Assembly (NCBI GenBank): GCA_964016885.1
Contig: OZ024743.1
Span: 267,158,001 to 267,222,000 of the forward strand
Direction of reading: 5' to 3'
Length of the DNA stretch: 64,000 nucleotides
Origin: Eledone cirrhosa
Taxonomy: Eukaryota
Shown: in pieces, positions 22,612 to 54,441 of the stretch
Layout of the letters: every line of letters starts with the position of its first letter
Numbering within the stretch: the stretch's first letter is position 1
Program-made: the position numbers and the translations under genes
Notes under the pieces: generated by a model
Seen by the model: only the letters and a program-made list of their open reading frames with translations
Told to the model about the DNA's origin: nothing
Database searches by the model: none

Positions 22612-23230
22612 TTTCGTTTCTGAATTTGTTTAGCAAGATTCTTTATCTGATAACGTGTGTTGAAACCGATATTGTTATAATTTGGGAGGGTCATGTTGCC
22701 AATAAGAAACACACGCACCAGAGATTTCACTCCAATTTATTATAAATTTATTTATTTAATTAAATTTCCGGTTGGTAGGTTCCACAACCGGACGGTTGTT
22801 CATATATGGTCAAAGTTCTTTGGTCACACATTCGGTGACGTCTTCAGTGACTGGGGATTATTTTATTTGTTTTGTGCCTCTCATTTGTTCTGTCCTTCGC
22901 CATCTTGTTTTTGTGTGTGTTCTTTGCTTAGTTTGCGCACGTGTTACATCCGGGTGTATGTGTGTGTTTCTATTTTTGAACACTGTCGAGAGCTTCAAGA
23001 TAAAAAAGAATCATCAATACTCCACCAACATGCTAAAATAGAATATAAAGGCAAATTAGAGAACATAGAAATAAAAATAAAATCTACATACAGAAAAGAG
23101 GCAATGCTTAGACAAATCACAGAGGCAATAAACATAAATGAACTCCAACCAAAATTAAATAGAAAACATGAATGGAATAGCAACATCACAACTTACAATT
23201 AAGGACAAAATGAAAACACACACACACAGA
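22612..23230. mobile_element. PLE family B terminal fragment with 5' inversion
   Basis: 22612-22975 (minus) is 3'UTR, HHR-like motif and ORF start (ATGACCCTCCCAAAT). 22978-23202 (plus) is the GIY-YIG C-terminus RQITEAININELQPKLNRKHEW. Confidence 0.8.
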
Positions 23231-23625
23231 GACACACGACTCCATACACACACACACACACACACACACACACACACACACACACACACACACACACATA
23301 CACACACACACACGCACGCACACACACACACACACACACACACACATATACATATATATATATATATATATATATATATATATATATATATTATATATAT
23401 GTAAATGTATTTATGTATATATACAGAGAGAGAAAGAGAGAGAGAGAGAGAGAGAGAGAGAGAGAGAGAGAGAGAGAGAGAGGGAGTACAGTTTATATAG
23501 GAAAGGCTTCTACAGGATTAGAACCTTTTCATTCGCATGATATCCTTATATGCTTAAATATATACATATGCTTACATATATACATATGCTTACATATATT
23601 CATAACACACACACATACACACTTA

Positions 23626-24173
23626 TAGGGTGAGGCAGAAAGGTTGCCCCAATTTCAAAGGTTATTAAAAAACAAACACATGAGCATAAGAGAAAAAACT
23701 TTGTATTTATAATAAGTACATTATATGTCATTGTGGTTTAAGTGGCAGATACGTGTTTTCGTGCGGAACGTCTGCGAGACTGCTGTATTGAAGCTGCCAC
23801 AGCTGCTACATTTTCTCGCCCTGTAGCGGTTCTAGGACGTCCAGGACTTTTCTTTTCTAAAGCCGATGATGTGTGTCTAAAGTTAGAAGTCCACAGACGA
23901 ATTGTTTTACCATCCGGTACGGGATCATGACGACGAAGTGCAAAGTGACTTCGGAATGAACGCTGCGTCGTTACGACGGACTTACCGTTCTTAAGAAACT
24001 CTTCCACAACAAATGCACGATAATCTCCACTCCAAGCCATGGTGGGGTATTATCTCAAACAGAAAATTAATGGCATGTAATGTACTTATTATAAACACAA
24101 AGTTTTTTCTCTTATGATCATGTGTTTGTTTTTATTAACCTTTGCAATCGGGGCAACCTTTCTGCCCACCCTG
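23626..24173 (-). mobile_element. Internally deleted Tc1/mariner-superfamily element
   Basis: ~105-bp TIRs (YAGGGTG...GCAGAAAGGTTGCCCC) and TA flanks. Retains the transposase N-terminal HTH region 23738-24040 (MAWSG...TQRSFRSHF...GRPRT...RRSARK, DUF4817-like). No DDE/D domain. Confidence 0.85.
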
Positions 24174-24535
24174 TATATCCAACATCACATTTATCATTAA
24201 TGTACGATATATCTTAGTAATCGAGACCACTAAAGTGTTTAGATTAGTTAGGAATATGTTGCGAGCAACATTTTATTGAACTGGATTGTTTGGGCTACAT
24301 CGTTCACTTTTTGGAGAATTTGTCATAAGTTAAAAGGTGTTTATATACTTCTCTGATCTAGATATCTTTAGGTGCCACGTTCATTGCGATGACTCGTATA
24401 TTATTGAATTCTGTTGGTTATATACTCCTTTATTTTATTGTCGCGCTTCTTTTAGTTTTGCGATATATATATATATATATATATATATATATATATATAT
24501 ATATATATATATATATATATATATATTTATATATA

Positions 24536-25231
24536 ACTATACGAACATGCTAGACAACAACATGACGGTAACATAGACAACATAGAAATTAGAATAATAT
24601 CTAAATATAGAAATGATCCAGCAGATAGGCAAATCAGAGAGGCCAGTGAAATAGAAATTAGAAGACCAAGGCTAAACAGAAATAATGAATGGAATAACAA
24701 CAACACCCAAACAAACAACACTGACCTAAGAGAAGTATCAATAAGTAAATAAAATAAAATAAATAAATAAATAAATACATACACAAGCACAATAACAGCA
24801 AGCACATACACACACACTAGTCACCCATCACACAGCAAACAAAACGCTATACACACACGCAAACGCATGCGCAAAGAAGACAAAATAAAATAAACAAACA
24901 AGCAAATAAATAAATAAATAAATATATAGACAGACTGAATAAAAATGGCGTAGACATACACTACAACAGGAGGAAAATATAGCACCACTGACGATGTTGC
25001 AGATGTGCAACGAAAGATTTATGATAAACTATATATATGTGTTTGTGTCTATATTGTATCTGTATTATTTTTGACCGCCGGTCAGTCAATGGCAACATTG
25101 AGGACCGAGTATATTAGATTACCGATATAAGAGACACAGAAGTGAGAAGCGAAAATCAACCAAACAGTGAGTGTGTTCTGTTATTAATTCTGGCAATATT
25201 ACACAAATATGACCCTCCCCAAGTATAACTA
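24536..25231 (+). mobile_element. Solo pseudo-LTR of PLE family A (older copy) in (TA)n
   Basis: Homologous to 49790-50521: GIY-YIG C-terminus, 3'UTR, HHR motif at ~24984-25024, ending in ATGACCCTCCCCAAGTATAAC. Confidence 0.9.
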
Positions 25232-52890: not shown

Positions 52891-52960
52891 TCTTATATTA
52901 TATATATATATATATATATATATATACACACACACACGCACACATATATATATATATATA

Positions 52961-53086
52961 TATTTTATAGAAGGAGCTTCTACAGGACTAGTACTGTTTC
53001 ATTCAGATGAAATCTTCAGGAAGCTTCCTGAAGATTTCATCTGAATGAAACAGTACTAGTCCTGTAGAAGCTCCTTCTATAAAATA
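52961..53086. repeat. Perfect 126-bp palindrome containing hammerhead cores
   Basis: Centre AAGCTT at 53021-53026. Each arm reads CTGAAGA-TTTC atct GAAT-GAAA-CAGTACTAG-TC. A diverged single arm lies at ~23492-23547. Confidence 0.85.
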
Positions 53087-54185
53087 AAAAATGTTACTCT
53101 GCCATGTATTGAGTACCTTACTTACTGTGGTTATCCCCGACTCAACCCGGGACCTACGTATATATATATATATATATATATATATATATATATATATATA
53201 TACATATATATATATAGATAGATAGAAATATAGAGTATATATATAATATATAATATATACATATATATGTGTGTGTGTGTATGTGTGCGTTCGTGTGTGT
53301 GCGTGTATATACATATTCGACGGACTTGCCCGTTTTTTTTATGGTTATGCCTGAAATGTTACTTTAATCCACCTACTGATTTATATATCAAGTCGTATTT
53401 AGTGCCGATGACACCGCCAGGATGGAATGTTTGATAGAATAATTTTATTAGTTCTTATATCATGAATATGGACCAGATTAGATTTTCCAAGGAATTTATC
53501 CCAATGGCAAATATGTCTCCATTCTCCAGGGTCAGCAGTTAGTGTAAGAGGTATGCTTACATATTTAAAAATAAAATATACCTGCATGTATATATATATA
53601 TATATATATATATATATAGATATATATATATAGATATATATAAGTGTGTGTGTATGTATGCATACTTATATTTACATATTTAAGTTTGTAATTTAGTTTG
53701 TCTTTATATATGAGTAATATTTTGCCTACATTACGTTCACGGTTCTGGAGTTGTATGAGAGTACCTTGGGTCAGTAGTCCTCAATTATCCAAAGGAAATG
53801 CTCACGCCATCTGAGTTGAGATTAGATCAGAAATGAGTTAGTCCCACCAATGTTGCCACTCGTGAAGGGATAGACATTGGAGATTTTGCCAGAAAGTGCA
53901 TAACTAAAGACAGGGGAAGACATCAAGCTTGTAAATGTGTGTGTGATAAAGTGTCCACGACTCTGTGACGTATAAGAGATGTATAGATAGCTATGTTTAT
54001 CAATATACGTATAAAATATACATTTACATAAATTGTGTGAGAGATACATAGATAGATATATGTGCATATGTGTATATAGCTATATATAGATATATACGTA
54101 TGAAATATATTTTGGGAAAAAATATGTCTGCATATATATATATATATATATATATATATATATATATATATATATATATATATAT

Positions 54186-54441
54186 ATATTGTTATACTTT
54201 GGGAGGGTCATGTTGCCAATAAGAAACACACGCATCAGTTGCTTCCACTTCAATTTATTATAATAAATTTATAAATTTAGGGATTTATAAATTTCCGGTT
54301 GGTTGGTTGGTTCTACAACCAGATGGTTGTTTATATATTGTCAAAAGTTCTTTCGTCACACATTCTGTGACCTCTTCAGTGACTGGGGATTCTTTTCTTT
54401 GTTTATGTACCTCTCCTTTGTTCTGTCCTACGCCATCTTGT
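54186..54441 (-). mobile_element. PLE family B terminal fragment in (TA)n
   Basis: Homologous to 41541-41785. HHR motif at ~54340-54383, ending ATGACCCTCCCAAAGTATAACAATA. Confidence 0.85.

What the first reader, a model, noticed from the sequence alone, without database searches (positions are those of the whole stretch)
22612..54441. PLE ends run past the ribozyme into the ORF start and stop at TA microhomologies
Seven termini of families A and B (22612, 25231, 41541, 42902, 43037, 50568, 54186) extend 130-200 nt beyond the HHR and through the next ATGACCCTCCC. They stop at variable points, about 13-80 nt into the ORF, where element sequence merges into TATA (CAATAT, AAACTA, ACAAATAT). Inference: priming occurs by annealing to nicked (TA)n, on a template that spans the cleavage site (circular or uncleaved multimeric RNA).
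Basis: partly seen in the sequence, partly recalled or inferred. Interest (0 to 1): 0.7.

Follow-up and report, generated by a model that had tools for sequence, protein, structure and literature searches.

The report
Paired fixed ends of Penelope insertions
These ends belong to two very abundant Penelope-like jumping genes and are their known 'tail'; they stop at two or three fixed points rather than at random, and nearly every two-armed copy has one short and one long end, which likely means the element copies its RNA twice, once from each side of a cut TA repeat.

Summary
The seven ends are real: two Penelope-like (PLE) families run 147-267 nt past a minimal hammerhead, through the next ATG, into (TA)n. 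They are not variable. Genome-wide exact counts: family B ends at +26 (7,804), +69 (1,120), +84 (2,700); A at +86 (11,308) and +26. Better TA matches are skipped (+51, 5 nt: 27; +141, 6 nt: 1). Used sites overlap (TA)n by 2-4 nt, so pairing at most sets the register. This is the published PLE 'tail' (two internal start sites). Added here: 80 of 82 two-armed insertions carry one short and one long end (the scan found such pairing before elsewhere in this genome); both arms and tandem units share private variants; 5' truncations pile up at a promoter-like motif upstream of the ribozyme, not at its cut; one insertion shares 30 A>G changes between its long arm and the upstream unit of its short arm. 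Best reading: twin target-priming at two fixed sites on uncleaved RNA, with re-use of one unit. A circle is possible but not shown; no RNA data were available. Verdict: variant of a known kind, mechanistically informative.

The parts
43037..50569 (.). One two-armed family B insertion in a compound (TA)n tract: 4.9-kb short-tail arm (minus strand: partial unit + full unit + 26 nt) joined head-to-head to a 2.6-kb long-tail arm (plus strand, ends +69)
   Evidence: self-BLAST and tblastn; pair table
43570..47202 (-). Uninterrupted PLE ORF, 1,210 aa: N-terminal domain, Asn-rich stretch, DKS motif, RT, CX4CxxC linker, C-terminal GIY-YIG-type nuclease
   Evidence: weak Pfam RVT_1 on the inverted copy; 49 relatives at E<=1e-30, best a named Octopus vulgaris protein at 67%
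43037..43062 (-). Short tail, ORF +1 to +26, ATAT overlap with (TA)n
50501..50569 (+). Long tail, ORF +1 to +69, TA overlap with (TA)n
43256..43298 (-). Family B minimal type I hammerhead (core CUGACGA, extra U, 6-bp stem II, palindromic stem III); predicted cut 43261/43260; stem I only 2 bp. Further copies at about 47396-47438 (-), 50265-50307 (+), 24984-25026 (+)
   Evidence: not found by Rfam
43337..43345 (-). AAAATGGCG motif (YY1-like; name recalled) where 5' truncations cluster; likely near the pLTR transcription start
41537..42901 (.). Two-armed family A insertion; ends +13/19 (-) and +71 (+); arms meet symmetrically at a palindrome centred 42202/42203; hammerhead cores at 41724 (-) and 42663 (+) with 4-bp stem I
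22609..23340 (.). Family A insertion: long-tail arm (+86, minus strand, 22609-22975; hammerhead core has GAAA changed to CAAA) and an inverted arm that breaks off in a (CA)n run, so its end is lost
24536..25234 (+). One-armed family B copy, short tail (AAC-T-ATAT junction), 5' end joined to (TA)n
54186..54441 (-). One-armed family A copy, short tail +26, 5' end at the YY1-like motif

Best explanation
These are the tails of two Penelope-like retrotransposon families, ending at fixed short (+26) and long (+69/+84 or +86) sites, one of each per two-armed insertion, which is likely the footprint of twin target-primed reverse transcription: the nuclease would cut both strands of a (TA)n tract and each 3' end would prime at its own protein-positioned site on an RNA whose ribozyme is uncut, with 2-4 nt of TA pairing likely setting the last bases. 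Shown: fixed sites, pairing, (TA)n targets, arms spanning the cut site, both arms and tandem units from one source haplotype. Inferred: two nicks, two RT active sites, the two cDNAs joined head-to-head at their 3' ends, and a step that re-uses one unit to build longer-than-unit arms (I favour strand transfer on a terminally redundant linear RNA, about 0.5, over a ribozyme-made circle, about 0.35). Arms that stop at the promoter-like motif would be run-offs at the RNA 5' end.
For: Discrete ends. 61 of 63 two-armed insertions with element coverage >=0.9 are short+long (A 36 of 37, B 25 of 26; binomial p 3e-10 and 4e-7), 19 of 19 more among young B copies with both ends in view, and all 13 tiny partner arms found opposite short ends (10 after removing a tandem repeat) are long-site arms, some only 13-44 nt and never reaching +26. 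Neither arm is nested in the other (short arm longer 24, long arm longer 28, within 15 nt 9, of 61). Arms of one insertion share subfamily haplotype (<=10% of diagnostic sites differ in 13 of 14 B and 13 of 20 A pairs, against 17% and 10% of random pairs). 25 insertion-private alleles are shared by both arms in 13 of 26 insertions, and 27 by all units of an arm in 11 of 32; different insertions differ by a median of 15 substitutions per unit. Arm starts: 13 of 102 (A) and 6 of 110 (B) in the 21 nt at the YY1-like motif (p 5e-6 and 0.03 against arms within 400 nt), 1 and 0 within 3 nt of the cut; TA-joined A starts genome-wide 135 matches at the motif against 37 at the cut (overlapping rows included, 24 distinct loci at the cut). 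In vitro, the anole PLE cuts and extends both strands, starts at two internal sites and does not need ribozyme cleavage (PMC11167929).
Against: Only about four independent start sites exist, so their 2-4 nt overlap with (TA)n is weak evidence of pairing; a fixed nick phase plus a fixed start base gives the same junction, and the anole PLE starts without homology. Five of 61 pairs have arms starting within 2 nt of each other (expected 0.6; permutation p 1.5e-4), often at palindromes, which fold-back also explains. Two long+long pairs exist (both beside other copies and probably rearranged). 42 and 66 private alleles are not shared among units or arms. Of 90 unpaired termini 20 join (TA)n directly and 57 could not be resolved. 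RNA folding did not single out the used sites. No recombination break at either the start motif or the cut was seen. No RNA evidence at all.
Confidence: 0.62

Rival explanations
1. Same two fixed start sites and twin priming, but with no primer-template pairing, as reported for the anole Poseidon element; the TA overlap is incidental in AT-rich sequence.
For: Stronger TA matches are skipped; +69 has only 2 nt of overlap; PMC11167929 reports non-homologous initiation.
Against: A lacks TA at +68/69 and hardly uses it, B has it and does; secondary ends fall on other TA/AT blocks (+19, +51, +71); about ten variant junctions keep the TA phase in register with an internal ATAT/TATA block against one out of register, and three show local re-priming repeats such as TAACAA twice (read by eye).
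Confidence: 0.2
2. One reading: ends fall wherever TA microhomology allows, on a ribozyme-made circular RNA copied by rolling reverse transcription.
For: Arms of up to 3.1 units with near-identical units and shared private alleles; no ends at the cut, as a sealed circle predicts; family A ribozyme intact; circle proposed in PMC4209133.
Against: Ends are fixed and ignore the best matches; starts cluster about 90-100 nt upstream of the cut, where a circle has no end; unlike units within one insertion in L168, L206+L207 and L212; young B copies keep only 2 bp of stem I yet make multi-unit arms. The circle part alone, combined with fixed sites, stays open (about 0.35).
Confidence: 0.06
3. One priming event followed by self-priming fold-back, or nuclease resolution of an intermediate, makes the inverted arm and the one-sided tail (Arkhipova 2013; Craig 2021).
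For: Symmetric junctions at palindromes in 5 of 61 pairs, including window 42202/42203; arms share haplotype.
Against: A fold-back copy must lie within the first cDNA: 24 of 61 short arms are longer than their long arm, and long arms of 13-44 nt face short arms of up to 1.4 kb; a cDNA begun at +26 holds no +27 to +86 sequence. An antisense-template version was not tested.
Confidence: 0.1

Closest known systems
Poseidon element of Anolis carolinensis (PAc), Frangieh et al. 2024, PMC11167929 (read: first two of four parts, main text and start of methods)
   Same: C-terminal GIY-YIG PLE, both strands cut and extended, AT-rich target, two internal RT start sites inside the ORF start that define the tail, ribozyme cleavage not needed
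   Different: There: sites at +111-118, no homology to target, no strand preference for either site, ribozyme overlapping the ATG. Here: sites about 43-60 nt apart (+26 and +69/84/86), 2-4 nt TA overlap, strict one-site-per-side pairing, ribozyme 118-198 nt upstream of the ATG
EN+ PLE insertion structure with inverted pLTR and one-sided 30-40 bp tail (Craig et al. 2021, PMC8557442, passages and supplement rows; Arkhipova et al. 2013, PMC3846280, passages; Schostak et al. 2008, PMC2377424, passages)
   Same: Partial tandems, inverted 5'-truncated copy, tail often at one end only, (TA)n targeting, promoter inside the pLTR, Asn-rich ORF insert
   Different: Tail is 43-60 nt; those passages give no count of the pairing and ascribe it to nuclease resolution or self-priming; Schostak sees no obvious way to regenerate the pLTR, whereas unit homogeneity here implies a re-use step
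Nematis clade of PLEs (alignment in Fig. S2 of PMC8557442, read as text)
   Same: Short linker C-x4-CxxC-x7-C directly before the GIY-YIG core, two cysteines inside the core
   Different: No phylogeny with named references was run; assignment is by eye
Minimal type I hammerheads of PLEs (Cervera and De la Pena 2014, PMC4209133; first of four parts and passages)
   Same: Long stem II, short stem I, extra base before stem II, tiny palindromic stem III, copies on opposite strands 100-700 bp apart
   Different: Family B stem I is reduced to 2 bp in the youngest copies
L1 twin priming (recalled; search gave no PLE paper using the term)
   Same: Two target ends prime two cDNAs that join as an inversion, often with short overlap (23 of 61 junctions overlap by >=2 nt)
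   Different: Here both primers start at fixed internal sites and the two arms cover the same RNA stretch

Membership tests
EN+ Penelope-like elements | Single ORF with PLE-type RT and C-terminal GIY-YIG nuclease | tested here: met
   1,210-aa ORF with YVDD RT core and VYSI...YIGET nuclease motif, compared by eye with Fig. S2 of PMC8557442; Pfam gave only a sub-threshold RVT_1 hit on the inverted copy and no GIY-YIG hit
EN+ Penelope-like elements | Partial tandem pLTR and inverted 5'-truncated copy | tested here: met
   window 43037-50569; 63 pairs
EN+ Penelope-like elements | Tail extending into the ORF start at one end | tested here: met
EN+ Penelope-like elements | Minimal hammerhead in the pLTR | tested here: met
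   core motifs and stem II with two compensatory pairs between A and B; stem I weak in B; Rfam missed it
EN+ Penelope-like elements | Ribozyme self-cleavage | not testable with these tools
   needs an assay
Nematis clade | Short CX2-5CxxC linker plus CCHH-type nuclease | tested here: met
   motif spacing matches Nematis rows, not the long Neptune linker; by eye
Nematis clade | RT phylogeny | not tested
   no named reference proteins were held
Hydra clade | CxCX5C linker, no CCHH, DKT motif | tested here: not met
   CX4CxxC linker, core cysteines and DKS present
Circular-RNA retroelements (retrozyme-like) | Unit-length circular RNA sealed at the ribozyme cut | tested here: inconclusive
   unit homogeneity for, promoter run-offs and unlike units against; no RNA run

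The most novel reading that the evidence does not exclude
An asymmetric two-site machine: one PLE complex holds one RNA, assigns the +26 site to one target strand and the +69-86 site to the other, copies the same molecule twice, and regenerates its pseudo-LTR by re-using a single unit (retrovirus-like strand transfer from the 5' end, or rolling on a ribozyme-made circle). One insertion with a shared ADAR-type A>G barcode suggests the two primers can even engage different junctions of one multimeric RNA. This would be an insertion pathway distinct from both LINE and LTR types, readable from tens of thousands of genomic copies.
Probability: 0.3. Interest if true: 0.8.

Novelty: new variant of a known kind. 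Interest (0 to 1): 0.5.

Why it matters
How PLEs make their inverted ends, one-sided tail and pseudo-LTR is an open question (PMC8557442, PMC2377424 passages). This genome holds at least 24,802 A and 11,698 B junctions, including intact young ORFs, and gives sharp numbers to test in the existing in vitro system: which strand uses which site, whether 2-4 nt of pairing matters, and whether longer-than-unit products need an active ribozyme. The tail itself and the uncleaved template are known.

Tried and rejected
Rfam found no hammerhead, only microsatellite-driven miRNA hits below threshold. The repeat finder was swamped by (TA)n. No RNA holder listed; contigs of four runs of unknown or guessed kind showed only depth steps and TA loose ends near +26, +71 and +84, no usable joint. 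Whether the A>G-edited haplotype of L168 is unique in the genome was not settled; it was the only such cluster among 525 held segments. RNA folding of the tail did not separate used from unused sites. A four-gamete scan for a recombination break at the cut or the start motif was flat and noisy. Predicted homodimer of residues 1-255: no verdict, score 0.00. Leader/trailer on one RNA with the long arm always shorter, and simple fold-back, were rejected. Telomerase-like synthesis of the flanking (TA)n was not tested directly; compound repeats continuing in phase on both sides of several insertions suggest pre-existing targets. [quoted passage not shown]

Full report
What is in the window. The stretch holds five insertions of two related Penelope-like families. 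[quoted passage not shown] The linker spacing matches the Nematis rows of Fig. S2 in PMC8557442 and not Neptune or Hydra (by eye). 43037-50569 is one insertion: a minus-strand arm of 1.2 units ending 26 nt into the next ORF, joined head-to-head to a plus-strand arm ending at +69. 41537-42901 is a two-armed family A insertion. The others are 22609-23340, 24536-25234 and 54186-54441. Each pLTR has a minimal type I hammerhead as described by Cervera and De la Pena; stem II has two compensatory pairs between the families. Stem I is 4 bp in A, but 2 bp in the youngest B copies and 3 of 4 in older ones.

The observation. All seven ends pass the ribozyme and the ATG and merge into (TA)n. They are not scattered. 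I fetched all of the first 100 B anchor matches and most of the first 100 A matches along contig C1, plus 30 loci of young internal junctions. Among 223 termini, A has 49 at +26 and 48 at +86 of 106; B has 60 at +26, 11 at +69 and 22 at +84 of 117. Whole-genome exact patterns agree: B +26 7,804, +69 1,120, +84 2,700; A +86 11,308. These are exact-match counts with patterns of unequal length, so they are lower bounds and only roughly comparable. The A +26 site was counted in the sample only.

Microhomology. The used sites overlap (TA)n by 4, 2, 3 and 4 nt. The best matches in the B tail are nearly unused: +51 (5 nt) 27, +141 (6 nt) 1, and +19 (4-5 nt) has 4 calls of 117. So homology does not pick the site. 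It may set the register: B has TA at +68/69 and uses it, A has CA there and has 50 ends at +71; rare ends fall on other TA/AT blocks; variant junctions such as AAC-T-ATAT (7 in B, 1 in A) keep the TA phase of the internal block. A fixed nick phase with a fixed start base could mimic much of this, and the anole element starts without homology, so pairing is likely but not shown.

Pairing of ends. Of 66 candidate two-armed insertions, 3 were dropped for element coverage under 0.9; 61 of the other 63 have one short and one long end. Among the young B regions showed both ends of one insertion and all 19 are short+long. Thirteen 'single' short ends (10 distinct) have a tiny inverted partner, always from a long site, some 13-44 nt long. 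The two long+long cases lie beside other copies and look rearranged. [quoted passage not shown] Neither arm is consistently nested in the other (24 against 28 of 61), which excludes simple fold-back for most, though 5 pairs are symmetric within 2 nt (p 1.5e-4). Arm starts come from BLAST and can be off by a few bases; at least one (C1:2870180) was mis-called. Inversion junctions: 23 overlap by 2 nt or more, 17 are near-blunt, 21 carry inserts, of 61.

The template. Most arms begin upstream of the ribozyme cut (80 of 102, 82 of 110), and 56 and 70 begin upstream of the promoter-like motif, needing sequence of the preceding unit. Starts cluster at the YY1-like motif and not at the cut. That fits run-off at the 5' end of a linear, uncut transcript from a pLTR promoter, as mapped for Drosophila Penelope; RT stalling at the A-tract there is an alternative, and no control site was searched genome-wide. 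Absence of ends at the cut fits either uncut RNA or a sealed circle. Within young B insertions, units and arms are near-identical (45 private and 8 shared differences over 77.7 kb of same-arm pairwise overlap, against a median of 15 per 4.1 kb between insertions), and 27 private alleles are present in all units of an arm in 11 of 32 insertions. Plain inheritance of read-through multimers cannot spread a new mutation to every unit, so a single unit is often re-used: by a circle, by strand transfer between the redundant ends of a linear RNA, or by later unequal exchange in source arrays. Against a single circle as the only template: L212, L206+L207 and L168 have unlike units. In L168 the long arm is 98% like the upstream junction of the short arm and only 80-90% like its terminal pLTR, and shares with the former all 30 of its clustered A>G changes. 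If those edits arose on the template RNA, both primers used one linear multimeric molecule at different junctions; an edited source locus, a template switch or later recombination could also explain it, and it is one case.

Mechanism. Best reading (0.62): nicks on both strands of (TA)n; each 3' end primes at its own fixed site on uncut RNA, aided by 2-4 base pairs; the two cDNAs run for independent lengths and are joined head-to-head. The fixed sites, pairing and shared source are shown; the nicks, the pairing step and the re-use route are inferred. This works like the anole PLE in vitro and like L1 twin priming (recalled), and the families are members of the EN+ PLEs by all sequence features tested.

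Papers seen: PMC11167929 first two of four parts; PMC8557442 passages, supplement rows and one supplement part; PMC4209133 first part and passages; PMC3846280, PMC2377424, PMC7229834 passages; bioRxiv 10.64898/2026.07.22.740005 first part; others as search listings only.

Verdict. The corrected picture is a variant of the known PLE tail with strict short/long pairing and signs of single-unit re-use. Interest 0.5.

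Noticed in passing
L168 (G000:C1 about 2083727-2090092): Family A insertion whose long arm and the upstream partial unit of its short arm share 30 clustered sense A>G changes (about -228 to -84 from the ATG), ADAR-like; the short arm's terminal pLTR is another subfamily without them.
   Followed up: partly
L206+L207: All three long-arm units carry a roughly 118-nt deletion that the short arm's full unit lacks, though four private alleles are shared by both arms.
   Followed up: partly
L202+L203, L204+L205, L208+L209: Insertions of 9.6-16.8 kb with arms of up to 3.1 near-identical units.
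   Followed up: yes
window 43251-43268 and about 30 of 113 B copies: A 9-nt duplication straddles the predicted ribozyme cut in one young B lineage.
   Followed up: no
L101:7300-8500; L240+L241: Whole small two-armed insertions repeated three to four times, apparently duplicated after insertion through the flanking repeats.
   Followed up: partly
L058, L072, L110: Short-site junctions with a local repeat of the TAACAA stretch, resembling abortive start and re-priming.
   Followed up: no
window 60209-62161 (-): A different, 5'-truncated PLE ORF (Neptune-like linker by eye; frame ends before the nuclease core) between very long (TA)n tracts.
   Followed up: no
window 9535-22300 (-): Several fragments of a LINE with AP endonuclease and zf-RVT Pfam hits.
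   Followed up: no
window 46440-45980 (-): Long Asn-rich (AAC/AAT) stretch inside the PLE ORF, as described for Adineta Penelope families.
   Followed up: no
window 54602-54714; 28116-29264; 29494-31879: A 110-nt palindrome and two blocks of tandem duplications of unrelated repeats.
   Followed up: no
pLTR of both families, e.g. window 43337-43345: YY1-like AAAATGGCG motif, and a GCGCATGCGC motif (NRF1-like; both names recalled) about 40 nt upstream in A: a candidate promoter.
   Followed up: partly
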